NCBI GenBank assembly: GCA_036172245.1
Contig: JAYWIR010000143.1
Location: 1-64,000, forward strand
Reading direction: 5' to 3'
Source of the DNA: Raillietiella orientalis
Lineage: Eukaryota
Length of the DNA stretch: 64,000 bases
Part shown: piece after piece, positions 1-39,419 of the stretch
How positions within the stretch are numbered: position 1 is the first letter of the stretch
Layout of the letters: the number at the start of each line of letters is the position of its first letter
Program-made: the position numbers and the translations under genes
Notes under the pieces: model-generated
Database searches by the model: none
The model's input: only the letters and a program-made list of their open reading frames with translations
Told to the model about the DNA's origin: nothing

Positions 1-54
1 CGCGTCCACCCTGGAGCACGCAAAGCATTCGAAGGTGTATACCAGGAAGTCCTC

Positions 55-1990
55 TTGGAGCTCCTGGGTCGCATGGGCTTCCCACCCTCCCTGATTTCCT
101 ACCTGCGCTCTTGCTGGCGGAATGCGATGATTACCATCTCTTTCAGTGGACACAAGGTGTATGGCGTGCCGGTGCGGCGGGGCATAAGGGAGGTAGATAG
201 CCTCAGCCCCCTGCTCTTCAGCACCTACTTTGAGCTGGTGCTGAGAGCGTACAGGGTGACTTTGGCCCCATTGCCGAGCTCGTGCCCCGGCACGCCCGCC
301 GTAGCAGCGTACGCCGACGATCTTCTGCTCTTGTTGCCAATGTCCACCCCGGCAAAGGCGGTCGGAGACTTCTTCGATCTGCTCAGCCGCGGGACCGGAC
401 TGCAGGTTAACAGGGCGAAGTCGTCGGTTGTGCCAATAGGTGCGGCGTGGGCAGGGCAGCAGGTCTGGTTACGTCTGGGGATCCACACCGCGAGGTGCTT
501 CAAGTACCTTGGTGTGCCGTTCGGGGACTACTCCAATCTGGTTACGTCTGGGGATCCACACAGCGTGGTGCTTCAAGTACCTTGGTGTGCCGTTCGGGGA
601 CTACTCTCCTGCGGAAGCGTGGTCCAGCTGCCTCCAAAAAGTCGAGACGGCGATCGGCCCGTTCCTGGAAGGCAAGTTTCAGTTGCCGGAACGGGTCGCG
701 GTTTGGAAAGCTTTCGCGGCCCCCATCCTCCGCCCCTTGCTTTTTGTCTGCCCCCCCACCGTGGAATCCAAGAAGTGGACAAAGGACCTCCTCCGTATCG
801 CCCTTTGGGGCAAGGGGAGGCCCCGAGTTGCTCTGAAGGACTTGCGCGCTCCGCGTCAAGATGGCGGTCTTGGCCTCCTGACGCTGGAGCGCGTGGAGAA
901 GCAGCTGCGGTGGCGAACCCTCGCCATCGCAGCGAAGATGTGGAGCACCCCTTGGTGCACTTAGGCCCGCCTCCTGGCCAGCCGTGTGTCCCGGTGCGAT
1001 AGACTCGCGTCTTTTCTTCTGAGCCGTGGCCGGAAGATGCGAAGATGCGGCCTACTGCTCGGGCGCATAGCAACATTGGCCAAAGAGAACAGCTGCATGG
1101 TTTGCTGCCCCGCCAACTCCCCCGCCTGGCTGGAGGAGAATATTGGAACGTGGGCAGCGGTTAACCAGAGGAGCCACGAAACGTGGAATCGTCTCCGATG
1201 CAGCCCCTACGCCCGCTGCACGCTGCGGAATCTCCTGGAGAGTCCAGCAAGATGCACGTGGGCAGAGACGACCTGCCTAGCTACGGCGCTGCCCTTCCTG
1301 AGGAGGGCACTTCACAGCAGCCGGACGCCAAGGTGTCAAGTCTCCTGCTGCATCGAGGGACGCGAGAAGTTGATCAGCGGCTGGACAACAGGAGAACTGG
1401 CCTACGCCACGACCCCGAGCGTCCAGCCGCGAGGATTATTAAGATGGGGCGAGCTGCTCGCCATCCCCAGGGATCAGCTGAAGTGGCCCCCGGTGATGAA
1501 GGAGTCCAGGATCCTGCCCCTGAAGTGGCAAGAGTCGGCGTTGCTTTTGTTGCACTGGGGTCTACCCTGCAACGCGCGCCGCTTCCACTGGACGAGGGGA
1601 GCTGTGGATCCTGCGTGTGCCAGGTGCGAGGAGCGGGAGTCGCTTCTCCACCTTATTATGGATTGTGCTGCCCTCCGACCCCTTTGGGAACGGTTCGGGA
1701 CGACCCTCGGGCTCCCTACAGGGAGCACTCCCAGAGACGTTCTTCGGCCCTTCTTCGTGAAGGACGCACTGCAGCCCGCCGCAGCCATCGCAGCCTTGAG
1801 CTGCGTCCGTGGCATCGTGGCGGCATGGAGCGATGCCAACAACGAAGGAGTGGGTTCACCGGCGAGGGATGTCATCCCGTATGCCCAACGCTTCTTGCGA
1901 AGAGCTGCCGGATGGCCCCAACTGGGGAATATGCAGACAGACCTCGAGGGCTTCGTTCGACGGATGGGCCCTCCCCACAGCGACCAGTGA
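55..1990 (+). pseudogene. ORF2 fragment of A (RT C-terminal half + Cys/His finger), disrupted
   Basis: ORFs 55..1002, 440..964 and 986..1990 join into one ORF2; frameshift from a 73-bp duplication; in-frame TAG at 962-964. Confidence 0.88.
464..606 (+). repeat. 73-bp-period tandem duplication inside the RT
   Basis: tctggttacgtctggggatccacac...ggggactactc at 464-533 and 537-606, two mismatches. Confidence 0.95.
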
Positions 1991-2197
1991 TCCCTTCCCT
2001 GCCCTCCAACTTCTTTTTGTTTGTTTCTTTTTATCTTTTTCTTTTTGTCTTATCCCCATCCCCCTTCGCTGTCGGGGAGTGCCACGCCGGGCTGCGTCCC
2101 GGTGTCCCGACAGGTCGTGTGTTTACGGCCGTGGTGGGGCCTTGTACCACGCAGGTAGAGTTTATTAATAAACGCCCCTGGCGTACCCGGGTGATAA

Positions 2198-2709
2198 CGC
2201 TGAATCCCTTGGCGAGTGGACGTGGTTTTCCTCCGCTCCCGAGTGAGTCGACAGGAAGCGGTTTTTTCTTGGTGTGTGTTCGTGTGGAACATCGTTGGTG
2301 TCCGATGGCAGCGATGCCTGAGGACACCAACGATGAGACAGGCGTGCTCTGCTTAACAGTCCCACGAGAGGGAAGTCATCCAGCACGCAGTACTATTCTT
2401 GCGGAGAGCTGCCCGATGGCCCCATCTGGGAAGTATGCGGACAGACCTCGAGGGCTTCCTTCGAAGGATGGGCCCTCCTCACAGCTTCCGGTGATCCCCT
2501 CCCTACCCTCCACACTCTTTTTTTTTGGTTCATCTCTTTTATTTTTCTTTTTGTTTTTTCCGCATCCCCTTTCGCTGTCGGGGAGTGCCACACCGGGCTG
2601 CGTCCCGGTGTCCCGACAGGTTGCGTGTCTAAGGCCGCAGTGGGGCCTTATATCACGAATTATAGAGAGTTTTTTCTAAATAAACGCCCCGGGCGTACCC
2701 GGGTGGCAA
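2198..2709 (+). mobile_element. Mini non-autonomous LINE derivative K (5' UTR + 30-nt inverted ORF2 piece + 3' end)
   Basis: 2217-2335 resembles the 5' end of J (61797-61914); 2334-2363 is identical to 20520-20549; 2364-2709 is homologous to the 3' end of A (1861-2197). Confidence 0.8.
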
Positions 2710-3598
2710 CACCAAACCCGGCAGGCATGAGGTTCATAGGGAACTCGTCGCAAAACTCCCGGACCGAGCTCTTGTAGCGGTTCCAGTCCTGAAGCGTCTG
2801 CAAGCTGAAACCTCGTATGAATCCGCGGAGATGCTCCTCGGCTTCCGGAAGTTTCAGCCAGTCCCCCGGTAAGCGCCACGCAGATGACGGCGGACCCCTA
2901 TCTCGTGGGCGCACCTCGAGTACGATCTGGTCATGGTCCGACAGTTCCGAAGGTAACTTGCCGCGCCTGCCCACGCGTGAGCATAGGTGCTGGTTAAGAA
3001 ACACGTGATCTATGCTGTGGGCCATTTTCGGATCTCCCGCGAACAAGTTGCGCGTGTGCATCTCTGCGCACAGTTCGTTCACGCGGTCCCGAAGTGTGTC
3101 GGACGTACCTGACAGCAGGCGAAGGTTAAAGTCACCTGCGATTAGGATCGCTTTGCGCACTCCCACTTCGTACAGATATTCGCGCCTCAGGGTAAGAAAA
3201 AAATCTCTCCTTGCCTTTGTCCTTAGCGCGTCGCTGCCGCTTGGGGCGTACACGTTGGTAATGACCACATCGATATAGTCGGACCACCTGATGGTCAACT
3301 GACCGACGCGACCGGCACTATCGAACCGTACGCCCTTTGCCGCAGCCTCGACAGCTGGACGAAGCACGAACGCGACACCGCAAGATTTAACGGTGCCGCA
3401 ATGCCACATCAGCCGTCCACCCGAGATACGCTCGATTTCCGTTGCTTGGTCTGCGGAGATCACGTGGATCTCTTGCAGCAGCACCAGGTCGAACGATGCC
3501 AGGGTGGAGGTCACGTCTCGTCTCTTGCCGTCGTCGCTTAGCCCGTTGACGTTCCAACAAGCAATTCGCAGACGGCGGCAAGAGGCGATTCCCGGCAT
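2710..3598 (-). pseudogene. APE-type endonuclease domain of B ORF2, truncated by K
   Basis: WNVNGL, LLQEIH, NVYAP, AGDFN, IDHVF and SDHD motifs. Confidence 0.9.
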
Positions 3599-3985
3599 TA
3601 AGACTAGGAACGTGGCGTTGCAGCACCTGTCAAGGGACAGGTGCGAGGGACGAGTAAGGGGACTGCGGCCATCTCAGGCACTTGAAGCACCTGGAGCACA
3701 GCCTCTAACCTGTCTTTTCCTCCGGGGTCGCAGCGTGATGTTACCTCTCGAGGAGAGTCCCTGGAGTTCCCCACTTTCTTCGCACGCTCGCTTCCCTCAA
3801 TTATCTCTCCCTTTTCCACGAACGGGATAATTTTTCGGGTAGCCTTCTTCGGGCGACTGGCCTTCGGGTGGGAGGCTGCGATGCCGCAGGATATGTTTTC
3901 CGCCTCTGCGTCAGAGTTCGAAATCTCCGACTTCTTGACCGAGGTCGAACGCCTTAAGGCCCTTTACGCGGATTTGGGCGGATGC

Positions 3986-3999
3986 TGCAAGGACGCAGC
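3986..3999. repeat. Left copy of a degenerate 14-bp TSD of the C array (right copy 35294-35307)
   Basis: tgcaaggacgcagc vs tgcaacgacgctgc, 12/14 identical; the flanks rejoin into one minus-strand ORF1 (..KKC[S/C]V[V/L]AASAQIRVK..). Confidence 0.7.
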
Positions 4000-4053
4000 G
4001 AGCTCCTCCGCTGCTCGCTCCAAGGAGACGTCGTCGAGCATGCGTTCGACGAC
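4000..4053 (+). mobile_element. Extreme 5' tip of a C-family leader (probably of C3, separated by the C1/C2 insertions)
   Basis: cgctccaaggagacgtcgtc..gacgac matches 59658-59695 of C4, where it continues into sequence found at 15663 onward. Confidence 0.65.
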
Positions 4054-4142
4054 AACGCTGGCACGGACGTGTTCTGTGTTGCTCCACGAGCGTGATTCCT
4101 TTCCGTCTTCTTGTGTGTGGTGTGCCCGGGTCGTCCACTGGG

Positions 4143-6086
4143 ATGTCCACGGAGCCCCTGCAGCAAAAGATGGATGTGGAGGCTGCTACTGGCAGTGGAG
4201 ACTCTACTCCAGATGTCCGGTCCGCCTCTGATTCTTGTGTCTCACCATCGGCGAGAAGCTTCGCCGCCGTCGTCAAGGCGGCGGCAGCCAGCGGAGCAAC
4301 GCCCGACGAAGCGGAGCTGCAGGCATATGCAGCCCATGGCTACAAGCCTGCGCTCTGCTATCCGGTGAGTGCTGCGATCTCCGACGGGGTCGGAGAAAAT
4401 TTCTGGGACGAGCTTTTGCGCGTCAGGGTCCGACAGGACGACCTCCTGGCCGTCATGACGGTTAACGCGCTCGGACACTGGGAGGTGCACTGCAAAGAGG
4501 CATCCCTAGTCCAGCGCCTTCTCCGCACCCCGCTAAATATCCGCGGGAAAAAGGTCGTCCCGTCGGCCATGGACCAGTCGTTCGTGGTCCGATTATCCGC
4601 CGTCCAGGTGGACACGCCCGATCGCGTGCTCGTTGCTGCACTAAGTGCATTCGCCAAGGTGCACGCGCTGTGGAAAGCCGAAAATCCGATCAAAAGGATT
4701 GCATCTCTCCACAGCGGACTTGCCATGGCGCGTGTCACCATGGCGGATAGGAGGCAAATGCCTCCGCACTTGCAGGTGGGCGATGCGATCGTCCACCTTA
4801 AATTTGCCGGTCAGCGACCGGCTTGCGGCATTTGCGGTGCCGAGGGCCACCGTCCGTGGACGTGCCCTTCACGCAACTGCCGCTATTGTAAACAGCTCGG
4901 CCATTCCATCAAAGAGTGCGCCGAGCTAAAGAGAAAGAGGCAGGAGAAAAGCCGCCAACAATCGACCGCGTCCGCGCCGAAAAGATCCCCCGTTGTGCCA
5001 CGGGAGAAATCGGGCGCGAAGGGCGGGGCATCTTCGAGTGGAGGTCCCGCGAAAAAGGGCGCTGTTGCTTCAGGAGAGCCACCATCCCAGACAACCGCGC
5101 AGACGGGAAAGATGCCACGTCGCCCTGGGGGCAAATCGCCATCTTCGAAGCAGCCTAAGAGTGCGAGCACGCACTCAATCAAGGCTGCTTAACCGTCCGC
5201 GTCCGCTTGCGCGTCCAGCGGAGCACACGCGAAACCGTGCGCGGGTACCCTCGGAGCTGCCTCTGAACGGCAGTCTCCTCCTACGGCGGTGGAGATCACG
5301 TCATCCACTCCGAAGGCACGGGCAGCGAAGGCTCCAATAGCGCCTCGCGGGACGACGGCAATGACCGCCGTTTCGCCCGCATCGGCTAAGGAGCAGGTGC
5401 AGTGCGTAACTGGGACGGAGCCGTCTACCGCCGCAAGCGCGAAACGTTAGCCGGCATCTCCGGCCAAACAATTGAGGGAGGCGTCGGCCTCCCTGGAGAG
5501 CGTCCCCGACGCGGGCTGGACTCGACTCTCCAGGACGCCCACAAAGGGGAAGAAGAAGGTTGACCCTTCAATATTCCCCATCCTTAAGGTGGGTGGGAGG
5601 CAAAAGAGAAGCACGCCGAAGAAGGTGCGTACCCAGGTACGCACTACACCTGCGTGCTCTGTCTATGTCGCTTCGCGCGAGAGGGCGGCTGCGGAAGCCA
5701 AAGCTCCGGAAGCTGCGTTGGCGACTGCGACGAACCCCGCGCTGGCAGGGCAAGCGTCCACCTGCCGAAACAAAAAGAGACTGGCAAAACGCCAGTCTCG
5801 CGCCAGGCACTCGGACTCCGAGGTGGAGTCCGAGTGCAAACAAATGGAGCGCGCATCCCGGGGAAAGCCGGTAGCGCGCCGGGCTAAACTGCGAAAGCAC
5901 GAGCCTGTTGCCGAAGGCGGTTCCGGCTCCTGCATGGAGACCGAGGCGATGATCCTCGGCTCCCAGGACTCAGCTGGGAGCGATGTGGCGGCGAACGGGA
6001 GCGATTCCGCTTCCCAATCCGCTCTCCTACCAGCTGACTTCTCGCCGGACGGGGGGAGGAGCACGCCGTCATGTCCGCAGCAGTGA
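4143..6086 (+). pseudogene. C1 ORF1, Gag-like nucleic-acid-binding protein (647 codons, two CCHC knuckles), two nonsense mutations
   Basis: CGICGAEGHRPWTC and CRYCKQLGHSIKEC; TAA 5190 and TAG 5448 are sense codons in C2/C3. Confidence 0.9.
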
Positions 6087-9000
6087 TGCGTGGACTCCCG
6101 TCCGCTCGCCGCGTCAGCGTGGCCTGTTGGAATGTCAACGGGCTACGTGATGCTGACAAAAGGCGGACGGTAGCCAACGCTTTGCGCGCGTTCGATCTGG
6201 TGCTGCTGCAGGAGATACATAGCATCTCCGTACGGCAGGCATCGGATCTGGAAGAGCGCGCGGGCGGGACGCTACACTGGCGGCAAGGCTCCGCGCACAC
6301 GTGCGGAGTCGCGTTCCTCGTCCGAGGCAGGGTGGCGGAGGCGGTGCGGGACGTTTCTTTCGACGAGGAAGGTCGTGTGGGCCAACTTGTCCTCAAGTGG
6401 TCCGAATCGATCGACCTGGTCGATACGAACATCTACGCGCCGAGCGGCGGCCGGCATTACGCCCAGCGACTTGCATTCCTGGGTGGCCTGCGCAGCCGCT
6501 GGCTCGCTGACTCCGGCCCTAAAGTGGCGCACCTCCTTGCAGGAGACTTCAACGTCCACCTGCTAACAGAGGAGAGATGCCGCTTGAGGGAGAAGCAACT
6601 GGTGAGCGAGGTATGCGCGTCCGTGCGCGTGCAAAACTTGCTTGCTGGTGAGCCCGGGATGGAGACATCGCCGGACCATGCGTTCCTCGATGAACACCTG
6701 CTCTCACGAGTAGGTCGGAGAGGGCGCCTGCTGTCCGTGATTTCGGATCATCCGAGACTGAAGTTCGAGCTCCTCCCGCCTGGCAAAGGGCCTCCGATGA
6801 ATGTCTGGAGGTTGCCGGCCGACTGGCTCAGCAATTCGGAGGCGGCGGAGCATCTCCTCCAACACCTCCGGGGCTTCGCCATTTGTGATCTCGAGGACTG
6901 CGACGATCTGAAAAGATCGGTCCGCGAGTTCTGCTGCCGGTTCCTCTTGCATCTGCTTTTCCGCGGCTTCGGGGAGGGTGTCGCGAAAAGCAGATCCTAT
7001 CTCAAGGCGCGTACCTTCTCTCGATGCCCGGACGTCCGGCGTCTGGCGGAGTACAAGGCCAGGGCCGAGCGCCAGGTTTGGCAGTCTGGAGCGGCTTGTC
7101 TGCTTGATGACGCTGGCCAGGAATGCTCGGCTGCAGCCGAAGTACACCGCGTAGTCAAGCGCTACTACTCCTCTTTGTACGTGGAGGAGCCCACGGAACG
7201 CAGTCTCTCCGAGCTGCTTCTTCCGACGGGCAACCCTGCTATCGACGAGAAGGAACGCGCCAGATTGAGTTGACCCTTCACGGCGGAAGAACTATCCTCT
7301 GCCATAGCGGGCCTGAAGAGGCGTAAGGCGCCTGGGGAGGATGGCCTGCCCGCGGAGTTCTTTCAGTGCTTCGCGGCGGAGCTCGTCCCCCTGGTGCTCA
7401 GCCTTTTCTCGCTGATGCGTGAGACGGGAGATGTTCCCGCTTCTTTCCGCTCAGCAAAGGTGCGGCTCCTGCCGAAAGGCGGTGATTTGCGCCACCTCAG
7501 CAACTGGCGTCCGATCACATCGGTGAATTCGGACGTCAAGTTGTTCTCCAGGCTATGGGTCGCGCGCCTGGGGAGAATCGCGAAGTCCTTGGTAAGTCCG
7601 GAGCAGACGTATGCTGTTCCGGGGCGGTCCATGGACGCGAATCTCTTCTTCGCGCGAACATGGCTCAAGTTGTAGCAGCGCGTGGCGCAGCAGAGCCAGG
7701 CAGCCGAAATCGCCGCTGCCAAAGGAAAGCGGCGGTGTTCAAGGCACGATGGAACGCCGGGAGCCTTAGCGGTAACCGTCGATCTCTGCAAAGCGTTCGA
7801 CAGCGTAAACCAGGACCTCCTTCTGGAGCTTCTGGGACGCCTAGGCCTCCCGACGCACCTCATCGCCTACTTGCGCTCCTGCTGGTGTCACGCGTTATGC
7901 TGTATCTCTTTCAGCGGGCGTCACGTGTACGATGTTCCCATACGCCGGGGTATCAGGCAGGGAGACAGCTTAAGCCCCCTGCTCTTCAGCATCTTTTTTG
8001 AGTTGGTGCTAAGGGCGTACAGGCTTACGCTGGCCGACCTGCCGAGCTCCTGCCCGGGAACACCAGCCGTGGCCGCCTCTGCTGACGACCTTCTCCTGCT
8101 GCTGCCCATGTCCACCCCGGCGTCCAGGCTCGAGGACTTCTTCGAGCTCATTCGTCGGGGAGCGGGCCTGAGCGTGAACAGGACGAAATCAACCGTTGTA
8201 CCGGTTGGCTCTACGTGGGAGAAGCAGTCCGACTGGATCCGCCTGGGGATCCCCACGGGCAGGTGCTTGAAGTACCTCGGCGTTCCCTTGGGCGCCTTCT
8301 GTCCAGCAGAAGCGTGGTCGGACTGCCTTCACAAGGCCGAGACTGCTCTGGGCCCGTTCGAAGGCGGCAGGTATCTCCTGTCGGAACAAGCCTTCGTGTG
8401 CAACATTTTCGTTGTCCCCCTCCTCCGTCCCCTCTTTTTTGTTTGTCCCCCTCCCTACTGGGCTAAGCGCCGGGCGCAACGCCTGTTGCGTAACGCCCTG
8501 TGGGGACCGGCGAGGTCCAGGATACGCCTGAAGGACTTGGCGGCTCCTCGGCGGGATGCAGGATTGGGCATCCTGACGCTGGAGCGGATCGGACTGCTAG
8601 TGCAGTTCCGCATGCTGGCGCTTTGGGCGCAGCTCTGGACTACTCCCTGGTGTGCTCCAGCGCGGCTGCTGCTGTAACGCTGCACGGGTGGCGACGGACT
8701 ACGTTCGTTGCATCTGCGCACGGAGCGCGCCCAGAGAGGATTCGGCTTCCCTTTGAAGCAGCTCGCCACGCTTCTGGGAAAGCATGAGTGGATCTCCTGC
8801 CGGCCGACGAACTTCAACGCCTGGAGGCAGGAAGCCTTATCGTCCTGGGCAGCGCAACAGGATGTGTCCCGTTTGGAACTCCGTTGCGTGAAACTTTCCC
8901 CATACTGTCCAGTGGGGGAGGTGCTGGAAGACCAGGACCAGTGGACACGCCTAGGCGCTACGCCACTCGCCGAAGCACTGTGTGCACTGATGGTGCGAGA

Positions 9001-9650
9001 TGACAGTGACCTGCCGGCGAGGTGGGAGATCACTTGCGAAATCGCAGGCGAAACCCGACTGCTGGGCGGCTGGAGGACTTGCGAAGTGGCAGACGCTGCC
9101 ACACCTCGCATTCTTGCAAAGGGGCTTCTCCGGTGGAGTGAGCTCCTCGGGGTGCCCACCGATGAACTTGTGGTCCCTTCTGCGTGTTTGGACACGACTC
9201 TCTTCCCCCTTCGGTGGAAGCAGGACGCTTTTCTGCTGGTGCATAGGGGTTTGTACTGCAACCAGCGGACGCACCTGATTTCCGGGGGAGTTGCGTCCCC
9301 GAACTGTGTCAAATGCGGAGCGGTGGAATCGTTTCCGCATTTGCTGTTTGAGTGCGGTGCCCTCCAGGGGCTGTGGCAGCGGCTGTCTTCAGCGCTCCTG
9401 TAGCTTGGACACAGCTCACTGGATTGGATGCGCCGCTTCTACATCCGTGGCGGACTTTCTCTTGAAGCGGTCGTCGCAATCATCTGCTGCGTCCGCGCCA
9501 TTGTCAGGGCCCGCCACGTATCGCAGATGCGAGGAGTCCCAACATCGGTCCCCCGACACCGCAGCCTGCAACCTGCAAATGGCTGCTGGGTGGCCACATC
9601 TTGGAGCAGAAGTGAGGACGGAGATCGGCGGCATTCACCGCCGGTTCTGA
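6086..9650 (+). pseudogene. C1 ORF2 (APE-RT-Cys/His finger), disrupted
   Basis: WNVNGL, GDFN, NWRPI, DLCKAFD, RQGDSLSP, YADD mutated to SADD, CVKCGAVESFPHLLFEC; stops at 7271, 7673, 8675 and 9401. Confidence 0.92.
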
Positions 9651-9950
9651 GAATAGGAACGGGTAGACAGTATACCCTTGTCCCCGCCCTCCCACTCAGT
9701 TTATTTATTTATTGTCCCAGCCCCTCCCGTTCCGAACTCTCAGTGTGCCCGGACTGCGTTTAGGGAAATCTACTCCCCATTTTCTGTTCCCCTTGCCTGG
9801 GAACACAGTTCCCAGTTGATATTATACTAAACGTCCCGGCGCAACCGGGTAATAAACGACAACGGCCGCACGGACGTGTTCTGTGTTGCTCCACGAGCGT
9901 GATTCGTTTCCGTCTTTTTGTGTGTGGTGTGCCCGAGTGCATCCACTGGG

Positions 9951-15455: not shown

Positions 15456-15661
15456 GAATAGGAACGGGTAGACAGTATACCCTTGTCCCCGCCCTCCCAC
15501 TCAGTTTATTTATTTATTGTCCCAGCCCCTCCCGTTCCGAACTCTCAGTGTGCCCGGACTGCGTTTAGGGAAATCTACTCCCCATTTTCTGTTCCCCTTG
15601 CCTGGGAACACAGTTCCCAGTTGATATTATACTAAACGTCCCGGCGCAACCGGGTAATAAA

Positions 15662-21050: not shown

Positions 21051-21064
21051 CGCCGCCTCCGAAG

Positions 21065-25881: not shown

Positions 25882-26099
25882 GATTATTGCTAGTTTAAAA
25901 ATATACCCAATACCACGCCAAGGAAGTGTTTTAAACCACTGCCAAGGCAATTTTTAAGTGTGCTGAGAGGGCAATTGTTTGAGTGAACGCCAGTGTGGAA
26001 AGAGTTCAACCGAGGACCATCATCAGCAGCAGCAGCATCGCCAACAATTCCACGGTGGAAGTCCTGCAGTCGTCCCGAGCAGCCGGAACAGCTGCCAGG

Positions 26100-27674: not shown

Positions 27675-27708
27675 CTCAGAAAGGGCAAGAAACAGGTCTT
27701 CTCCTTTA

Positions 27709-30700: not shown

Positions 30701-31177
30701 TAGCGATCGGCACGACGCTGTGGAGGAGCGACCTTCCGCCGGGCACCCAGAATGACCTCCTGATGTATTATCACGGAGGAATCCAGAGTGGGTCTTGATT
30801 GCAGCACTTCACAGGAAGACGGGAAGACCGAGACTGCGCAGCATGTGGAGACGACGACACGAGACTTCACGTCTTGACGTGTCCCACACTGCTGCATGAC
30901 TGGCTGATTGAAAAGGATCATAGAACTTACCAACAAGTCCGTTATGGAGATCCTCGCCGGCATGTTTCATGGGGATGGTAATGTTCCCTGTTACAATCCC
31001 ATGGTGAGGACGACCATAGCCCTCTTCATCGCCGCCATACTTGTGCGGTGGTGGAAAATGAGGAAAGCCAGGAGAGCCGCACCACCGATGGAGATCCTAC
31101 AAGGGCTCTTGAAGAGGGAAATCGGCATCAGGAACTGCGGGAAGATCTACGCCTGGACGTACCGATTCATCCTGTAG
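27709..31177 (+). pseudogene. E ORF2 (APE-RT-Cys/His finger), disrupted
   Basis: MTSSLSTARRLNIAFWNVNG, AGDFN, QWRPI, DMEKAID, RQGDSLSP, YADD at 29629-29640, CAAC..H..TC. Confidence 0.9.
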
Positions 31178-31334
31178 AGGATCGAGGACGACGCCCGGGA
31201 CCATCCAGCTGGAATTCCTTCCTGAAAAGCAGAACTCTAGTGCAACCCAAGGAACCCCAAGTGCAAAATGTTTGTATTCAGTGAATGAGAGCGCGAATGT
31301 AAATATTGTATTTTTATAGAAAAATAAACTTACC

Positions 31335-32848
31335 TCACCCCTTGTGGGACTTGGGGAATCTTAGCGATCGCGACAGGCGCTGCCTCTTCCAGATCGGAGG
31401 GTTCATGCGTTGCCTTTGCGACCGTTGGTGGCTCTGCTGTAGCGGTTGTGCTCGCCCTAGCAGTTCCTTCCTTGGCCGCAGTAGGCGCTGCGTCCGCGCG
31501 CGAGGACTGCGGGTTTGCCGGCTGTTTCTTCGCGGCACTCGGTGCCTGGGGCACCTTGGCCGCGGTAGCTTCAGACGGCGCGGTGTTCTTTGCCCGCGGC
31601 CGCGTTTTCCCGTATCGGGCGAACGACCGCTTTCCGCGCCGCTCGTCGAGGCCTTGGTACGAGGCTCCGCGGTCGTTATAACGACAGTACGAGGCTCTTT
31701 GACCTTCGGCACAATGTCTCCTGCATTCAACAATTGGCTGCGAGGTCTCGTAGAAAGGTCACATTCTTCGCGAGGTTCCTTCAGGTCGATAGCCGGAGGC
31801 TTTGCCGCGACGAATTTTTTTGTGTTTTTCACCCCTTCTCTGTGGTGGCGAGAAACAGTTTTCTGCACGTGCGTGGTCGCGGTTTTTGCAACGCTTTTCG
31901 GAGCTTTGATGTTTCTTCCTCTCGATTTGCGGCGATTATTCCGCAATTCGGAACGCGATTCGTTCCTGTGCTTTTCGTTTTTTAAAAGGAGCTCCGGGCA
32001 CGTTCCTTCATTGTGCCCGTGCTCGTGGCAGTAACGGCAAGCAGCCGAGGGACACTTCGTAATGCGGTGACCCTTCTGCCCCCATTCCACGCATACGCGC
32101 GTTTGCCCGGCAAACCACAGGCGGACGGTCATTCCATCCACCTGCAGTCGCGTGGGCATTGCACGGCGATCCGTCATCGTCACTCGCACTTGCGCGAGCC
32201 CGCTGTGGTGATCTTCGAACCCTTCAGCAGGGTTTGGCAGCCTCCAAAGCGCGTTTACGGTAGCAAATTTTCCAAGGCCATCCACGACCCGGCGGTCCGA
32301 AAGTCCCTTACACACTCCACTGAGCCGGACAACGAATGACTGTTTCGTTGTGACAGGGAGTATTTCCTGCCCACGCATGAGCACGGCGTGTGCCGCAAAC
32401 GCTGCGTAAAGAGAGCGTCCTTACTAGACACTTCCCAGTAGCCGCACCCACTTATGGGCATGATGGACTCCAGTTGGTATTTTTGAACTCCAATCCGTCG
32501 GAGTTCCTGGCCAAACTCGCGCCCAACCCGCTCAGGCATAAGGACACTTACCTTATATCTGAGTGCAGGCGTGAAGCCATTTGCTACCTTCGCCTGCAGC
32601 TCAGAATTGTCGGGCGAAGGTTCCATCGTAGCCACGAGAACAGCGACCTGGGCGAACGTCCTCGCCGTCGGCGAGGACAGAGGCTCCTTGCTAGCAGCCG
32701 AAGCAGCCATCTCAGGAGCAGGATGCGTTCCCTTCTTGCGGCTGATGTTCTTCCTTGCTCCCATTGCAGCACAGAAGCACAGCAGAACAAAAACACACAA
32801 GAGCCAATCTACCGCGGAGCGACGCAAGAGCACGTCCGTACGCGACCG
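31335..32848 (-). mobile_element. LINE D, 5' portion (5' UTR + ORF1)
   Basis: ORFs 32255..32833 and 31335..32384 are homologous to C ORF1; ATG at 32764; bounded by the TSD at 32849. Confidence 0.9.
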
Positions 32849-35293
32849 TCGCTGATGCGTGAGACGGGAGATGTTCCCGCTTCTTTCCGCTCAGCACAGG
32901 TGCGGCTCCTACCGAAAGGCGGTGATTTTCGCCACCTCAGCAGCTGGCGTCCGATCACCTTGGTCAATTCGGACGTCAAGTTGTTCTCCAAGCTATGGGT
33001 CGCGCGCCTGGGGAGAATCGCGGAGACCTTGGTAAGTCCGGAGCAGACGTATGCTGTTCCGGGGCGGTCCATGGACGCGAATCTCTTCTTCGCGCGAACA
33101 TGGTTCGAGTTGGAGCAGCGCGTGGCGCAGCAGAGCCAGGCAGCCGAAATTACCGCTTCCAAAGGTAAGCGGCGGTGTTCAAGGCACGATGGAACGCCTG
33201 GAGCCTTAGCGGTCGCCGTTGATCTCTGCAAAGCGTTCGACAGCGTAAACCAGGACCTCCTTCTTGAGCTTCTGAGACGCCTAGGCCTCCCGACGCACCT
33301 CATCGCCTACTTGCGCTCCTGCTGGCGCCAGGCGTTATGCTGTATCTCTTTCAGGGGCCGCCACGTGTACGGTATTCCCATACGGCGGGGTATCAGGCAG
33401 GGAGACAGCTTAAGCCCCTTGCTCTTCAGCATCTTCTTTGAGTTGGTGCTGAGGGCGTACAGGCTGACGCTTGCCAACCTGTAGTGCTCCTGCTTGGGAA
33501 CTCCGGCCGTGGCCGCCTATCGTGACTACCTTTTCCTGCTGCTGCCCATGTGCACCCCGGCGTGCAGACGCGAAAACTTCTTCGAGCTTATTCGTCGGGG
33601 AGCGGGCCTGAGCGTCAAGAGGACAAGATCTATCTTTGTACTGGTTGTCTCTACGAGAGGGGGCAGTCCTACAGGAAGCGCCTAATGATCCCAACATGCA
33701 GCTGCTCCAATTACCTTGGCGTTTAATTGGGCGCTTTCTGTCAAGCAGAAGCGTGGACGGTATGTATTCACATGGCCGAGACTGCTCTGGGCCCGTTTTC
33801 AGGCGGCAGTCTCGTCCTGTCGGACAGGGCCCAGAGCAGTCTGTGAAACATCTTCGCCTGAAACATTTTTGTTGCTTCTATCCTTTGTCACCTATTTTTT
33901 TGTTTATGTTCTCCCTACTCAGTTAGCGTCGGGCAAAACTCCTCTTGCGATACGCATTTTGGAGACCGGCGAAGTCCAGTATCCGCCTGAAGGACTAAAC
34001 GGCTCCTCGAGGGGTGCAGGATTCGGCATCCTGACCCTGCAGCAGATCGGACTTCTAGTGCAGTTTTGCATGCTGGCACTGTGCGCCCAGCTATGGACCT
34101 GGTCTGCTCCAGCGCGGCTGTTGCTGCGGCGCTGCACGGATGGTCACGGACTTTTTTCGCTGTACCTGCGCACGGAGCGCGTTCGCGAGGATTCGGCTTC
34201 CCTGTGAAGCAGCTCGCCTCACTTCTGGGAAAGCATACTTGTATCTCCTGCCTGCCGACGAGAATCAATGCCTGGAGGCAGGAAGCCTTATCGTCCTGGG
34301 CAGTGCAAAAGGATTTGTCCCGTTTTTAACTCCGTCGTGTGAAGCTTTCCCCATACTGCCCAGTGGGGGAGGTGCTCAAGGACCAGGACCAGTGGATATG
34401 CCTAGCCGCTAAGCATCTTGGAGTAGCACAGTCTGCACTGATGGTGCGACACGACAGTGCCCTACCGGCGAGGTGGGAGGTCTCTTGCCGAATCGTAGAC
34501 GAAACACGACTGCTGGGCGCCTGGAGGAATCGCAAGCTGCCAGACGCTGCCACGCCTCTCATTCGTGCCAAGGGACTTCTCCTGTGGAGTGAGCTCCTAG
34601 GGGTGCCTACCGATGAACTTGTGGTCCCTTCTGCATGTTTGGACGCGACTCTCTTCCCCCTTCGCTGTAAACAGGACACTTTTCTGCTGGTGCATTAGTG
34701 TTTGTACTGCAACTAGCGGGGGCACCTGATTTCCAGTGGAGTTGCGTCCCCGAACTGTGCCAAATGCGGAGCGGTGGAATCGCTTCCGCATTTGCTGTTT
34801 GGATGCGGTGCCCACCAGGAGCTGTGGCGGCGGCTGTGTTCAGGTCTCCTGCACCTCGGACGCACAGCAATGGATTGGATGCGCCGCTTCTTCACGCGTG
34901 GTGGTCTTTCTCTTTGAGCGGTGGTTTCATTTATCTGATGCGTCCGCGCCATTGTCAAGGCCTGCCACGTATCCGAGTGGTCCCAACATCTGTCCCGACA
35001 CTGCATCCTGCAACCTGCAAATGTCTTGCGGGTGGCCCCACCTTAGAGCAGAAGTAAGGACGGTGATTGGCGGCATTCACAGTCGGATCTGAGAATAGAA
35101 ACTCCTGGACAGCGGTAACCTATCTCCTCCCTATCACCTTATTTATTTATTTATTGTCCCCCTTCTCCCGTTCCGAACTCTCAGTGTGCCTGGCCTGCAT
35201 GTTGGGAACCCTACTGCGCATCTTGTGTTCCCCTTGCCAGGGAAGGCAGTTCCCAGATGACATTACTGAACGTCCCGGCGCAACCGGGTAATA
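32849..35293 (+). mobile_element. LINE C3 segment 3 (RT to 3' end), more decayed than C1/C2
   Basis: Homology to 7409-9855; terminal cgtcccggcgcaaccgggtaata. Confidence 0.9.
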
Positions 35294-36498
35294 TGCAACG
35301 ACGCTGCATTTCTTTATGATCTCACTACCTTTTGTTTTTTTTGTTTTGGTAGGCTAACTTTTTTTCAGGTCGGCGTTCTTTTTCGATCTATTTTCTGTTG
35401 TAGCTTCTTGCCAGCCAGGCTTCTGGCCGTTTCCTTCTACATTTTCGGCGTTCTTTGCCGGTGTCTTGATTGCAGCCTGGACCATGGACGCGGGTGGCAC
35501 AGCTGTCGCGGCTGCTTTCGCCGCCAGGCTTTTTCTGTAGCAACCAAGCTCGTTTTATAGAGTTTCTTTCGGAAACCAGGCACACAGAAGCTTGTGAGCA
35601 CACTTCCCTCGTGTGGCCCATTGTACCGCATACGAAGCACTGCACGTTGGGGTACCTCGTTTCGAAGTGGCCTGACGTGTTGCAGAAACCACATTATTTG
35701 AACTTCCCCACATACCAACGGTCGACGGTTTCGCCGCCGAGCACCAGTTTGTGGTGTAGAAAGGTGCCCTCGCGGACGGTTACGCGTCAGCCGTGAGGCC
35801 GCATTGCAGTCTAGTGTAGTTCTCAAAGGTACTAGGCTTGGTCCAAACTGCATGGACCGTTCCGTGTTCATCTAAAGCGGCGCGTACTTGTTCTTTCCGC
35901 ATCCGCGCTATAACCTTCAACCGGTTTTCCACCATACTGGGGTCCGCCGTAATGGGAAGGAGCCTGCGTGTCCCCATCGCCACGGTGTTTTTGAGCTGAC
36001 GCTGGGCCAGATCTGCCTGTTTGCAGTTCAGCTCAACGTACTACCCCCGCTACGCATGGTCACAGCGCAGAGCTACTCCTTCTGTATATTGAGAGCACGC
36101 ATCCCTTTAGAGAATTGGCGAGCACTCTCAGAACAATATAGATTGCCTACCTTGTAGAACAGTGAGAAGTTATATCCTTCCTCCACATAGGCAGACAATT
36201 CCGCCGCGATTGCAAGCAATGGCGCCGCCATGACGGCGCTCCACGCCCGCGCTGCTGCGGGGATCGATTCTGTGGGGGCGGATGTCCCCACCTCCATCGC
36301 CTCTTAGGGCGACGTTGCCTCCGCCCCCTGGTACTCCTTCGCCTCTTGGGGCGACGTTCCCGCGGCCTCCTGGCACTCACTGGTGATTGTCTCAGGCATC
36401 GCTACCTGATCGACCACTGGACCATTGAACGCGAGCACTGAGGGAGGGGTGGTTCTGGCACGAGGAGCACAAACAAAAAACGTTCGCCCTAGGGCGCA
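35294..36498 (-). mobile_element. LINE H: 5' UTR + ORF1 N-terminal part (same element as B)
   Basis: ATG at 36399; ARAWSAVMAAP..AYVEEGY..LFYKVG; CFVCGTMGHTREVC knuckle. Confidence 0.82.
36292..36378 (-). repeat. 42-bp tandem duplication in H ORF1
   Basis: ctcc(a/t)tcgcctctt(a/g)gggcgacgtt..cctgg(t/c)actc twice. Confidence 0.8.
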
Positions 36499-38582
36499 TA
36501 AAGAGGTCGACTGCGTGGACCAGGATCTCCTGCTGGAGGTCTCCGTCACATGGGCTTTCCACCCACCTATATTACCTAGCTACTCTCCTGCAGTCGCAAT
36601 GCGCTGATCACGCTTTGTTTTAGTGGACAAAAGGTGTATGGCGTTCCTGTGCGGCGGGGCATAAGAAAGGACGATAGTCTCTGTCCCCTGCTCTTTAGTA
36701 CCTACTTTGCTTTGGTGCTGACAGCGTACAGGGCTGCTTTGGCTCCCTTGGCGAGCTCGTGCCTTGGCACTCCCGCCGTTTCAGCGTATGCCGTCGATCT
36801 TCTGTTTTTTTTTCCTATGTCCACTACGGCAGCGACAGAAGGGGACTTCTTTGATTCGCTTATTAGCGGGACCGGACTGCTCATTAACCAAGCTAAGTCA
36901 TCGGTGGTGCTAATTGGAGCGACGTGGGTAGGATGGCCTCACTGGATCCTTTTGGCCAGGCACCTGAAGAAACTAAGCGTTCTGCTGGGGGACCTCTGTC
37001 CCACAGAAGCTTGGTCAGGTCGTATTCAAAAAATGGAGTTGGCGATCGGCCCGTCCCTGGAAGATAAGTTTTACTTCCAGGAACATTCCGCGCTTTGGAA
37101 CGCCTTCGCGGCCCCCATCCTTCATCCTCTACTCTTTGTTTGCTTCGACCCGTAGAAATAAAAAAAAGGACCAATGAGATCCTTCGCATCGCCCTTTGGG
37201 GCTAGGGTAGGCCCTGAGTCCCTTTGAAGGACTTGTGCGCTTCGCGTCGTCGCAGCGGTCTTAGCATCCCGACACTGGAGCGCGTGGAGATTCAGCTGCA
37301 GTGGCGAACAATGGCCATCGCAGCGAAGATGTGGTGGACACCTTGGTGCATTTTGTCTCGACTCGTTGCCAGCCGTGTATCTCGAACCGAGAGACTCGCA
37401 TCTTTTCTTCTGTGTTCATGCCGGAAGATCCGAAGATGCGGCCTACTGCTCGGACGCATGGCAGCCATGCCGAAGGAGAACAGTGGATGCTTTGCTGCTT
37501 CTTCAACTTCCCCGCTTGCCTGTTGGAGAACATCGGCCCGTGGGCATTCCTAAACCAGAGGATACACGAGACGTTGATGCACCTGCGACGTGGCCCCTTT
37601 GCCCGCTGCACTCTGCGGAACCTTCTGGAGAGTCATGCCAGAAGCACGTGGACAGAGACAACCTGCCTAGCTACGGCGCTGCTCTTCCTGAGAAGGGCGC
37701 TTCACAGCAGCCGGACGCCAAGGTGGCAAGTCTCCTGCTGCATAGCGGGACGGGAGAAGATGATGAGCGGATGAGAGAGCTGGCTGACGCCACGACCCCG
37801 AGCGTCCAGCCGAGAGGACTTTTGCGATAGGGAGAGCTGCTCGCCATCCCGATGGAGGAGCTGAAGTGGCCAACGGTTTCAAGAGAATTCAGGATCCTGC
37901 CCCTTCAGTTGTAAGAGTCGACGTTGCTCCTGTTGCACTGGAGTTTACCCTGCAACACTCACCTCTTCCATTGGACAAGGGGAGCTGTGGATTCTGCGTG
38001 TGCTGGATGCGGGGAGCGGGAATACCTCCGCCAACTCATCGTTCACTGTGCTGCCCTCCGACCACTTTGGGAAAGGTTTGGGCCGACCGTCGGGATCCCG
38101 ATGGGCAGCACCCCCAGAGACGTTCTCCAGTATCTCTTGGTGTGGGACGCCCTACAGCCAGTCACTGTCCTAGCAGCATTCTGCTACGTTCTAGGCATCG
38201 TGGAGGCTTAAAACGACTCCAACAACGAAGATCGGGACATGAACGAGAGGTAAGCCATCCAGCATGCTGTATGCTTCCTGTACAGACCTGAACGATGACT
38301 CCATCTGGGGAATATGCGGATGGGCATCGAGGGCTTCCTTAGACGGATGGGTCCTCCTCCGAGTGAACTTTGATTTCTTCTCTTCCTTATAACTTCTTTT
38401 TGTTTTGTTTATAGTATATTTTTGTTTTTGATTTTTTCCCATATCCCCTTTCACTGCCGTGGACAGTTACTCCGGGTTGCGTCCCAGCGTCTATGCACGT
38501 GCGGTGTCTATGGCCTTGAGCGCAGCCTTGTATTTCGCTTTTGTGATATTTAAATAGACCCTCCGGCTTACCCAGGTGGCAA
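36499..38582 (+). mobile_element. LINE L: decayed A-family 3' half
   Basis: Colinear with 21-2197 (ARCTLRNLLES, RGAVDSACAGC); decayed terminal hairpin at 38561-38582. Confidence 0.88.
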
Positions 38583-39400
38583 CCTCTGTACCGCGTGAAG
38601 GGTTCTAATTCCGCCTACATGTTTATCAGTTGTTTGACGTAGATCTGCGGCTTGAGGTCTAAGAGAACAACTACAAAAGACTCGCCCATCGCGGTGGGAA
38701 ATACTTTTTTCTTACGGATGGACAAGGTTGTGCAAAGGAGCCCCTGCATAAGAGCGGCGTGATTGCATAGCACCTTGACATAGCCCAATGCTGGAACAGG
38801 CATGAGTGCGATCAGGTCCTCCTCTTGCACTCCCACACGAAATGGTTCGTCAACATACTCAACCCCAGGTGTACGTACTCCACTTACGTTATAGCAAAGA
38901 GCAGGTTTGCAGCCCTGGGCTACATATGCCTGCAACTTCTTCTAGTCGGAGAGGCGTCCTTCTACGGCTGCAGAATCAGCCACGTCCGCGAAGTTCCTCG
39001 CGGTTGGCAGAGGGTTCGCACAGGTTATCGTTAACGTTGCAGCTGTGGGAAGTTGAGGAAGCACCGGCACTCCTACTTCCACGTTGCGGTGTTCACTGCT
39101 CATCTTCAGGACTAGGCAGTGGGACGCATGAACACAACCAAACAGCAGATCAACGGAGCGACACGAATTCACTTCCGTCTCCCATGAAAGCGAACGTTTG
39201 AATCGCCTGCAACCAGATGGGCATTCCGCCCTCCTGCTCTGATCATCCAGTCGTCGCCGGAGGGCAAGGAAAAATTCTTACCTCGCCCCCCTTGTCGTCA
39301 GGTCCGTGCCGCTCGAAGCGTGCACGTTCGTGACGATCAGGTAGATGGCGTCGGACTACCTGAGAATCCGCTGGCCGACACGATCGTCAAACCGCTTTAG
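38583..39400 (-). mobile_element. LINE I: 5' leader + ORF1 N-terminus (C-related)
   Basis: QAYVAQGCKPALCYNVS resembles QAYAAHGYKPALCYPVS of C; 5' motif at 39177-39155; outer boundary approximate. Confidence 0.75.
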
Positions 39401-39419
39401 CTCCAACTCACGGAATTTA

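What the first reader, a model, noticed from the sequence alone, without database searches (positions are those of the whole stretch)
1..39400. Self-targeting LINE guild with a two-mode orientation pattern
Seen: every resolvable insertion into the body of another element is antisense to its host: K in B, C3 in B/H, F+G in C3, D in C3, E in D, L in I, M in J. That is 7/7 (one-sided chance 1/128); N/C4 and J/N are also opposed. All four same-strand joints (A>K, C1>C2, C2>C3, G>F) are head-to-tail, within ~20 nt upstream of the downstream element's CGGACG motif. No copy is visible in the neighbouring 20 kb. Known: Zepp (L1 clade, Chlorella) integrates into itself. Inference: several families target each other, with position-dependent orientation. 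The cause could be the integration machinery, strand-biased endonuclease sites, or removal of same-sense nests by recombination. I do not know of this pattern being described, but I cannot check novelty.
Basis: partly seen in the sequence, partly recalled or inferred. Interest (0 to 1): 0.85.

Follow-up and report, generated by a model that had tools for sequence, protein, structure and literature searches.

The report
Nested LINE island, inserts mostly antisense
This stretch is an island of LINE retrotransposons inserted into one another like Russian dolls, a kind of cluster already known from green algae, and the striking rule that each insert lies backwards in its host is real in this window but rests on too few events to be called a law.

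Summary
Window 1-39.4 kb, and again from 59.66 kb, is a GC-rich island built only of L1-type LINEs (APE endonuclease, RT, zf-RVT, CCHC ORF1). At least six lineages about 70% alike share conserved 5' and 3' ends.

The nesting is real. Target-site duplications prove D in C3 (12/12), E in D (11/11) and the C1-C2-C3 array in B/H (12/14). F+G sits in C3 with a 16-nt target deletion.

I count 9 antisense internal joints of 10 (4 seen on both sides, 5 on one side). The exception is same-strand: N>J at about 39,180. One-sided binomial P is 0.011 for 9/10 but only 0.06 for the four two-sided events.

All four tail-to-head joints are confirmed and are within-family. Each array carries one target-site signature and no unit-level duplications. 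This fits concatemers made by RT template jumping better than targeted insertion at a CGGACG site. That motif is simply a conserved feature of the elements' 5' ends.

Self-nesting LINE clusters (Zepp, ZeppL) are known. A host-relative antisense rule was not in any passage I could read. No genome or reads were available, so the genome-wide test was not possible. The finding is suggestive and moderately interesting.

The parts
1..2197 (+). A: LINE, RT to 3' end. The 5' part lies off the window. Tail CCCTGGCGTACCCGGGTGATAA.
   Evidence: Pfam RVT_1; tblastn; tail. 76.5% identical to I.
2198..2711 (+). K: internally deleted A-family copy (163-nt 5' UTR plus about 345-nt 3' end). It is joined tail-to-head behind A.
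   Evidence: 82.5% identical to the A 3' end.
2712..3999 (-). B: EN and ORF1-end part of host element B/H. On the left it is cut by the K tail at CCAAACCCGG. On the right it ends in the TSD copy at 3986-3999.
   Evidence: Pfam Exo_endo_phos.
4000..9856 (+). C1: full-length C-family LINE (ORF1 with two CCHC knuckles, EN, RT, zf). It is the first unit of the array.
   Evidence: 96.2% identical to C2.
9857..15661 (+). C2: C-family LINE that starts 14 nt before CGGACG. Its ORF1 of 577 aa is intact.
15662..18856 (+). C3, part a: 5' end with an extra 113-nt 5' monomer, ORF1 and EN. It is cut by F+G.
18857..19872 (-). F: internally deleted G-family copy (5' UTR, part of ORF1, 3' hairpin tail).
19873..21064 (-). 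G: 5'-truncated LINE 3' part (zf-RVT). Its tail is joined to the 5' end of F.
   Evidence: Pfam zf-RVT 2.6e-5, below the gathering cut-off.
21065..21326 (+). C3, part b. It ends in the TSD copy TCGCTGATGCGT.
21327..25830 (-). D, 3' part: tail, ORF2 (RT 766-aa frame, EN) and the end of ORF1. It ends at the TSD copy of E.
25831..31360 (+). E: LINE of a distant lineage (24-30% aa identity to the others), with CCHC ORF1, EN and RT.
31361..32848 (-). D, 5' part: ORF1 start and the 5' terminus (CGGTCGCGTACGGACG...).
32849..35293 (+). C3, part c: RT to the 3' tail. It starts with the second TSD copy.
35294..36490 (-). H: 5' UTR and ORF1 part of host B/H. It starts with the TSD copy at 35294-35307. 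The 5' terminus lies near 36,490.
36491..38585 (+). I: A-family LINE, RT to a decayed tail. Its left edge abuts the 5' terminus of H.
38586..39180 (-). J: 5' UTR and ORF1 start of a further element, cut by the tail of I.
39181..39405 (-). N: 225-nt EN fragment (motifs VTNVHASSG and AGDSN). This is the edge of the island, and N lies on the same strand as J.
46243..46829 (+). Decayed solo RT/zf relic in the spacer.
   Evidence: tblastn E 3e-6 and 7e-7.
59655..61056 (+). C5: 5' part of a C-family copy (83% identical to C1). This is the left edge of the second island.
61091..61785 (-). R: middle/RT fragment of a B-like host. It ends in CCAATCCCGG.
61786..62819 (+). Q: 5'-complete element with a K-like 5' UTR, cut in EN by P.
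62820..64000 (-). P: 3' part of a D-like element with a hairpin tail. It runs off the window.

Best explanation
Shown. The window holds a Zepp-like LINE island: a Russian-doll nest, N(-)/J(-) > I(+) > B/H(-) > C1-C2-C3(+) > D(-) > E(+), with side nests A+K in B and F+G in C3. A second island starts at 59.66 kb. The elements are L1-type (CCHC ORF1; APE endonuclease, RT and zf-RVT in ORF2) and belong to at least six lineages about 70% alike. They share a 5' box (CGGACG, 10-13 nt, GCTCC) and a 3' end (AATAAAC, small CCCGG/CCGGG hairpin, 4-7 A-rich bases, no poly(A)). They integrate by target-primed reverse transcription with 10-14-bp duplications, mostly as 5'-complete copies, and land in each other.

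Inferred, step 1. The tail-to-head same-strand joints are concatemers laid down in one integration. The RT reaches the 5' end of one RNA and jumps to the hairpin 3' end of another RNA of its own family. Later unequal exchange or gene conversion may remodel the arrays.

Inferred, step 2. Internal insertions are antisense because the nick that primes cDNA synthesis is taken, or survives, on the host element's sense (non-template) strand. This would be a bias at the insertion step of the kind reported for human L1 in transcribed genes. It would be strong here because most hosts are 5'-complete, promoter-bearing copies. Step 2 is the weakest link: the bias itself rests on 9 of 10 joints in a single window.
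For: Island and nest:
- GC 55-62% against about 46% in the spacer.
- Domains. Segment map.
- TSDs 12/12, 11/11 and 12/14, with 0, 0 and 10 of 20,000 shuffles as good.
- Shared 3' block at 10 of 10 visible 3' ends of the A-P lineages, 9 by the pattern search and I by eye.
- 5' box found by my degenerate pattern in 10 of 13 tested 5' segments.

Concatemers:
- 4 of 4 tail-to-head joints are within one family.
- The downstream unit is 5'-complete or nearly so.
- A single TSD brackets C1-C2-C3, and a single 16-nt deletion brackets G-F. 0 of 4 joints carry a copy of the target site. This argues against double insertion as in Drosophila tandems (passages of PMC5932611).
- R2 protein makes head-to-tail products by template jumping (passages of PMC11371274).

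Antisense bias:
- 9 of 10 internal joints are antisense, one-sided P 0.011.
- Absolute strand of the ten inserts is 5 plus and 5 minus, from my tally of the map. So a fixed replication-direction bias or one cluster-wide transcript does not explain it.
- Hosts C2 and D show no purine or RRRA strand asymmetry (206/211 and 310/247).
- Every host whose 5' end is visible is 5'-complete: C3, D, B/H, J, Q.
- Human L1 shows an insertion-step bias against sense orientation in genes, tied to transcription-coupled repair (abstract of PMC5717806).
Against: - Only four nests are seen on both sides (P 0.0625), and five rest on one junction.
- The N>J joint is same-strand and internal.
- K|B and R|Q may be one event counted twice.
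- The pattern was noticed first and tested afterwards on the same data.
- No transcription data exist for this locus. No sequencing run could be listed, so the transcription link is pure analogy.
- The human bias is reported for genes, not for LINE-in-LINE nests.
- C1 and C2 are 96% alike, with a 100% identical tract of about 900 nt, while C3 is 84-92% alike. The array has therefore been reshaped by gene conversion or unequal exchange, which could also have made or enlarged it. ZeppL arrays do expand and contract that way (passage of PMC9977147).
- The 3' hairpin is too small to stand out from shuffles (z -1.0 to +1.2; the stem is predicted in 7 of 10 ends).
Confidence: 0.5

Rival explanations
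1. Chance and non-independence. Orientation of internal inserts is in truth near 50:50, and this window happens to show a run. The run is inflated by one-sided joints and by a pattern chosen after reading.
For: Only 4 events are resolved on both sides, one-sided P 0.0625. One exception already exists. Q/R and A+K/B may be the same event.
Against: 9 of 10 gives P 0.011. Even the conservative 7 of 8 gives 0.035.
Confidence: 0.3
2. Sequence-specific mutual targeting. Each lineage's endonuclease recognises a particular sequence inside another lineage, as R1 and R2 do in rDNA. Orientation is then fixed per insert-host pair and the 'rule' is a by-product.
For: The K tail meets B at CCAAACCCGG (2712-2721), and R meets the Q 5' end at CCAATCCCGG (61776-61785). 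These are the only two matches to CCAAWCCCGG in the window, at the homologous host position, on complementary sides and in the same orientation. All nests are cross-family.
Against: - The third A-family insert, I, sits at an unrelated site in the ORF1 of J.
- The five known nick contexts share no motif beyond a weak purine preference after the nick (read).
- The coincidence could also be one event seen twice, if the region is duplicated or the window is a permuted view.
- Fixed orientation per pair would still leave each pair a coin toss.
Confidence: 0.2
3. Filtering after insertion. Same-sense nests place direct repeats of related sequence side by side and are lost by recombination. Antisense nests and terminal tail-to-head joints survive.
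For: Recombination is active in the island. C1 and C2 are 100% identical over about 900 nt while differing by about 5% elsewhere, and C3 is a mosaic. There is an internal-to-internal joint between C5 and R. ZeppL arrays change by unequal exchange (passage of PMC9977147).
Against: Insert and host are only 66-73% identical in all the observed nests, which is poor substrate for homologous recombination. The filter would act on within-family nests, of which none of either orientation is seen.
Confidence: 0.1
4. The machinery targets a site just upstream of the CGGACG motif of a resident element and inserts there in the same orientation, one element at a time.
For: 4 of 4 same-strand tail joints lie 1-19 nt upstream of the motif. 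CGGACG occurs only about once per 1.5 kb per strand (83 hits on both strands of 64 kb).
Against: The motif marks the natural 5' end of the elements, as at the TSD-defined 5' ends of D and Q. Any joint to a 5'-complete unit therefore lies there. There are no TSDs around single units and one signature per array. All four joints are within-family, although the island holds six or more lineages.
Confidence: 0.15

Closest known systems
Zepp (Chlorella vulgaris C-169 / Coccomyxa subellipsoidea) and ZeppL-1_cRei (Chlamydomonas): L1-clade LINEs in nested clusters at putative centromeres
   Same: - LINE-only islands made by insertion into resident copies.
- Tens of kb in size (Coccomyxa clusters are 1.5-42.3 kb).
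- More GC-rich than the surrounding genome (61% against 53% there; 55-62% against 46% here).
- Nested and tandem arrangement.
(Passages of PMC3446292; PMC8226300; PMC9940879; PMC11005252.)
   Different: - Several lineages (at least six) nest in each other, rather than a single family.
- Most copies are 5'-complete, whereas Zepp arrays are described as 'mostly the 3' end' through frequent 5' truncation.
- The 3' end is a hairpin plus a short A-rich tail. That Zepp ends in poly(A) is my recollection and comes from no call.
- Kinship of the RT to Zepp could not be tested, because no Zepp sequence was at hand. The nearest named relatives are plant L1s at 21-27% identity.
- Chromosomal position is unknown.
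Antisense bias of human L1 insertions in transcribed genes
   Same: The insert lies antisense to a transcription unit, and the bias arises during insertion (abstract of PMC5717806).
   Different: That bias concerns genes, and it is a skew rather than a near-rule (the latter is my recollection). Here the 'genes' are other LINEs. Transcription of the hosts is not shown.
Template jumping by non-LTR reverse transcriptases (R2) giving head-to-tail products
   Same: Tail-to-head units of one template type. In vitro the jump goes from full-length cDNA to another RNA carrying the cognate 3' UTR. Head-to-tail transgene repeats are seen in cells (passages of PMC11371274).
   Different: This is shown for R2 protein, not for L1-type elements. 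Here it is inferred only from junction anatomy.
Tandem dimers of non-LTR elements by double insertion, and later unequal exchange (Drosophila R1, jockey)
   Same: Same-strand tail-to-5' joints of one family (passages of PMC5932611).
   Different: Double insertion leaves a target-site copy in the joint, and many such joints are tail-to-internal. Here 0 of 4 joints hold a target copy, and the downstream unit is 5'-complete.

Membership tests
L1-type (APE) LINE | ORF2 with an APE-type endonuclease followed by a reverse transcriptase | tested here: met
   PF03372 and PF00078 in B, C1-C3, D, E, A and I. Both lie in one frame in E, 27994-29586. The order EN, RT, C-terminal part is shown by tblastn.
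L1-type (APE) LINE | ORF1 with CCHC zinc knuckles and a C-terminal zf-RVT region, as in plant-type L1 | tested here: inconclusive
   CCHC motifs were found by pattern in the ORF1 of C2 (2), E (2), D (1) and F (1). PF13966 scores 25.2 bits in G, below its cut-off of 27.5. The relatives found carry PF13966. No RT tree was built.
Zepp / ZeppL | RT groups with Zepp and ZeppL inside chlorophyte L1 | not tested
   No Zepp or ZeppL sequence was available from a tool. The best relative is an unnamed metagenome protein at 55-56% identity. Named hits are plant L1s at 21-27%.
Zepp / ZeppL | Insertion into resident copies, giving nested and tandem clusters, with few or no solo copies | tested here: met
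   Nest with TSDs. The 20-kb spacer holds only one decayed relic. This covers only this window.
Zepp / ZeppL | Arrays made mostly of 3' ends through frequent 5' truncation (as summarised in PMC8226300) | tested here: not met
   Complete or nearly complete 5' ends are seen in K, C1, C2, C3, C5, D, F, H, J and Q. Clear 5' truncation is seen only in G, I and N.
Zepp / ZeppL | One cluster per chromosome, at the centromere | not testable with these tools
   No genome is held.
Site-specific LINEs (R1/R2-like logic) | One defined target sequence occupied in one orientation | tested here: inconclusive
   Two A-family joints lie at the homologous 10-mer, and a third A-family insert lies elsewhere.
Uni-strand small-RNA cluster (flamenco-like) | Inserts share one absolute orientation, antisense to a single long transcript | tested here: not met
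   The inserts are 5 on plus (E, C array, A+K, I, Q) and 5 on minus (D, F+G, B/H, J, P), from my tally.
Twin-priming inversion | Two inverted pieces of one element within one pair of TSDs | tested here: not met
   The opposed pieces belong to different lineages (66-73% identity). The host sequence resumes exactly after the insert.

The most novel reading that the evidence does not exclude
A guild of sister LINE lineages uses one another's bodies as landing sites under a strict rule. Internal integrations are always primed from the host element's sense strand, so every generation lies antisense to the one before (here six levels deep). RT template jumping adds same-family concatemers at 5' ends. 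Such obligatory alternation would build islands full of convergent promoters and long inverted homologies. That could be what makes these islands silent, recombination-poor and fit to serve as centromere cores.
Probability: 0.2. Interest if true: 0.75.

Novelty: new variant of a known kind. Interest (0 to 1): 0.45.

Why it matters
LINE islands of the Zepp type are the presumed centromeres of several green algae. How they grow, and why they stay confined, is not understood. A host-relative orientation rule would have three consequences:
- It would point to a concrete step of target-primed reverse transcription, namely which strand is nicked or which nick survives, as the organiser of the islands.
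- It would link them to the insertion-step antisense bias known for human L1.
- It would predict convergent transcription and double-stranded RNA from every nest.

The junction anatomy here also gives natural, in-genome evidence bearing on template-jump concatemers in an L1-type element. If the rule fails genome-wide, this is simply one more Zepp-like cluster.

Tried and rejected
Searches for more data:
- Whole genome: not held.
- Sequencing runs: none was listed for 35001-45000, and no RNA holder was listed.
- Metagenome scan with an RT alignment: 21 loci, all at or below 32% identity apart from one 24-residue match at 63%. They are of no use for nests.
- Earlier findings of this scan: nothing by place, by sequence or by words.
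A 'longer' homologue search gave only plant L1 names.

Tests that gave nothing useful:
- Open frame across the rejoined B/H junction: no long frame. The host is too decayed, so the test is uninformative.
- Strand asymmetry of purines and RRRA in hosts: absent in C1, C2 and D, present in E and B+H. It cannot explain the nests in C3 and D.
- Thermodynamic support for the 3' hairpin: z-scores from -1.0 to +1.2, not significant. The stem is predicted in 7 of 10 ends.
- Spacer 39.4-59.6 kb: 0 Pfam families in 76 frames of at least 90 aa. No tRNA. No telling tandem repeats. The organism stays unidentified.

Ideas considered and dropped:
- Similarity upstream of C5 and C1 (41 nt at 83%). I considered it as a shared B-like host site. 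I dropped that in favour of a shared C-family 5' leader, because nothing further upstream matches and no TSD-like copy is present.
- Replication-direction bias: rejected, because the absolute strands are 5:5.

Papers:
- Higashiyama 1997, Yamamoto 2003 and Noutoshi 1998 are not held.
- The Paramecium Helitron preprint is irrelevant.

Full report
Scope and limits. No genome is held for this window. No sequencing run could be listed. A metagenome scan with an RT alignment returned only distant LINEs (21 loci, at or below 32% identity apart from one 24-residue match). The scan's earlier notes were empty. Everything below therefore rests on the 64 kb itself plus the literature.

What the region is. 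GC is 55-62% from 1 to about 39.4 kb and again from about 59.7 kb. Between them it is about 46%. Long frames in the GC-rich parts carry PF00078 (RT) and PF03372 (APE endonuclease), and one carries a sub-threshold PF13966. ORF1 frames carry one or two CCHC knuckles. A tblastn map with the window's own frames shows nothing but LINE pieces on alternating strands. The nearest database protein is an unnamed metagenome protein at 55-56% identity. The named relatives are plant L1s at 21-27%. Names for the closer unnamed hits could not be fetched. The elements fall into lineages that are 66-73% identical in nucleotides: A/I/K (76-82% among themselves), C1-C3 and C5 (80-96%), D, P, G/F, B/H, R, J and N. 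E is a distant outlier at 24-30% amino-acid identity.

Except for E, the lineages share their ends.
- The 3' end reads AATAAAC, then CCCGG, a 5-nt loop and CCGGGT, then 4-7 A-rich bases, with no poly(A). The pattern search found it at nine 3' ends, and I carries a decayed copy.
- The 5' end carries CGGACG, 10-13 nt, then GCTCC, within 1-25 nt of the terminus. My degenerate pattern found it in 10 of 13 tested 5' segments.
- The hairpin is too small to differ from shuffles. The stem is predicted in 7 of 10 ends, with z from -1.0 to +1.2.

- A(+) 1-2197.
- K(+) 2198-2711. This is an internally deleted copy.
- B(-) 2712-3999.
- C1(+) 4000-9856.
- C2(+) 9857-15661.
- C3(+) in three pieces: 15662-18856, 21065-21326 and 32849-35293.
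- F(-) 18857-19872. This is an internally deleted copy.
- G(-) 19873-21064. It is 5'-truncated.
- D(-) in two pieces: 21327-25830 and 31361-32848.
- E(+) 25831-31360.
- H(-) 35294 to about 36490.
- I(+) from about 36491 to 38585.
- J(-) 38586 to about 39180.
- N(-) from about 39181 to 39405.
- Second island: C5(+) 59655-61056, R(-) 61091-61785, Q(+) 61786-62819 and P(-) 62820-64000.
This rests.

Proof of nesting.
- D in C3: the host resumes exactly, and TCGCTGATGCGT stands on both sides.
- E in D: TTAGCGATCGC stands on both sides.
- The whole C1-C2-C3 array in B/H: TGCAAGGACGCAGC against TGCAACGACGCTGC, 12 of 14.
- Matches as good arose in 0, 0 and 10 of 20,000 shuffles respectively.
- F+G in C3: 16 nt of host are missing, and CCGAAG stands at both joints.
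These four events are seen on both sides, and all are antisense.

Five more joints show one side only, and all are antisense:
- The K tail against the middle of B.
- The 5' terminus of H against the RT of I.
- The tail of I against the ORF1 of J.
- The 5' terminus of Q against R.
- The tail of P against the EN of Q.

One internal joint is same-strand. The EN fragment N(-), with the motifs VTNVHASSG and AGDSN, runs straight into the 5' terminus of J(-). It is either a sense nest or a 5' chimera made by template switching. The joint between C5 and R is internal to internal and looks like a later deletion.

The count is therefore 9 antisense of 10. One-sided P is 0.011, and the lower 95% bound of the true fraction is 0.61. 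The four fully resolved events alone give P 0.0625. A cautious 7 of 8 gives 0.035.

The same-strand joints. A>K, C1>C2, C2>C3 and G>F are tail-to-head. They lie 19, 14, 1 and 4 nt upstream of the motif, which is TGGACG in K. The motif also sits 10 nt inside the TSD-defined 5' end of D and 13 nt inside that of Q, and neither of those is a tail-to-head joint. It is therefore a mark of the natural 5' end and not a landing signal.

Four observations bear on how the arrays arose:
- All four joints are within one family, although the island holds six or more.
- Each array has one target-site signature, and no joint holds a target copy. Double insertion would leave such a copy, as in Drosophila tandems (passages of PMC5932611).
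- Two of the downstream units (K and F) are short, internally deleted RNAs, on which an RT soon reaches the 5' end.
- The C family has a 113-nt 5' monomer, present in C3 and C5, and a 41-nt leader shared by C1 and C5. This explains the different start points of C1, C2 and C3.

R2 protein is known to jump from finished cDNA to another RNA with its own 3' UTR, and it gives head-to-tail repeats in cells (passages of PMC11371274). I therefore read the arrays as concatemers from one integration.

There is a caveat. C1 and C2 share a 100% identical tract of about 900 nt, and C3 is a mosaic. ZeppL arrays are reported to expand and contract by unequal exchange (passage of PMC9977147). Later remodelling is certain, and it may have added units.

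Why antisense? The explanations I weighed:
- A fixed replication direction or a single cluster transcript is excluded, because the ten inserts lie 5 on plus and 5 on minus.
- A simple strand asymmetry of composition is excluded for hosts C and D (RRRA on sense/antisense 206/211 and 310/247; purines 50-51%). The five reconstructable nick contexts share only a weak purine preference after the nick.
- Sequence-specific mutual targeting has one striking point in its favour. CCAAWCCCGG occurs only twice in the window, at the K|B and R|Q joints. These lie at the homologous host position, on complementary sides and in the same orientation. This is either site preference or one event seen twice, through a duplication or a permuted view. 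The third A-family insert (I) lies elsewhere.
- Loss of sense nests by recombination is possible in an island that visibly recombines. However, insert and host are only about 70% alike.
- An insertion-step bias is what remains. In every antisense nest the priming nick was on the host's sense strand. All hosts whose 5' end is visible keep it, and with it the presumed internal promoter. Human L1 shows a bias against sense insertion in transcribed genes that arises during insertion through transcription-coupled repair (abstract of PMC5717806). I adopt this as the most likely mechanism, but it is an analogy and not a result.

Known or new.
- Self-nesting LINE islands are known. Zepp is described as targeting resident copies and forming nested and tandem arrays. 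It occurs in one cluster per chromosome in Coccomyxa, with clusters of 1.5-42 kb and 61% GC against 53% (passages of PMC8226300; PMC3446292).
- ZeppL clusters mark the Chlamydomonas centromeres (passages of PMC9940879; preprint 10.1101/2025.03.28.645958).
- L1 clusters occur in other green algal centromeres (passages of PMC11005252).
- In five full-text searches and the passages I read, I found no statement of a host-relative antisense rule for LINE-in-LINE nests.
- The original Zepp papers are not held, so the point may be in print there.
- The island differs from the published description of Zepp in three ways: its many lineages, its mostly 5'-complete copies, and its hairpin tails.

Verdict. 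The anatomy is real and well resolved. The island is a new variant of a known kind. The CGGACG 'mode' is better explained by 5'-complete units in concatemers. The antisense rule is suggestive (9 of 10) but under-powered and unexplained. It is worth a genome-wide count, which would settle it quickly.

Noticed in passing
about 7650-8550 and 13456-14356: C1 and C2 are 100% identical over about 900 nt (alignment columns 3600-4500), while they differ by 2-7% elsewhere. This looks like a recent gene-conversion tract inside the array.
   Followed up: partly
32849-35293 (C3, part c): The 3' third of C3 is a mosaic. Identity to C1 and C2 falls from about 92% to 69-85% in alignment columns 3900-5800, lowest at 4200-4500.
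   Followed up: no
15662-15774 and 59696-59818: C3 and C5 carry an extra 113-nt 5' unit that starts with its own CGGACG...GCTCC box. This resembles the 5' monomers of mouse L1. C1 and C5 share a further 41-nt leader.
   Followed up: partly
30700-30709: The 10-mer of E's target-site duplication (TTAGCGATCG) occurs a third time, inside E's own ORF2 C-terminal region. That makes 3 matches in the window against 0.11 expected. It is unexplained.
   Followed up: no
2712-2721 and 61776-61785: The only two CCAAWCCCGG sites in the window are the two A-family/B-type junctions. They lie on complementary sides, as if they were the two ends of one insertion, although they are 59 kb apart and in the 'wrong' order. 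A large duplication or a permuted assembly is possible.
   Followed up: partly
2198-2711 and 18857-19872: K (514 nt) and F (1016 nt) keep both termini but lack most of the body. They may be non-autonomous riders of their families.
   Followed up: no
61056-61091: C5 (at its position of about 1400) is joined to R (RT region) with neither a tail nor a 5' end at the joint. It looks like a deletion or rearrangement scar.
   Followed up: no
39406-59654: The spacer has about 46% GC, no Pfam family in 76 frames of at least 90 aa, no tRNA, and frames that look non-coding. Its nature is unknown.
   Followed up: partly
464-606; 26228-26319; 36292-36378: Small tandem duplications lie inside elements: 73 nt x2 in the RT region of A, 27 nt x3.4 in the ORF1 of E, and 42 nt x2.1 in H.
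   Followed up: no
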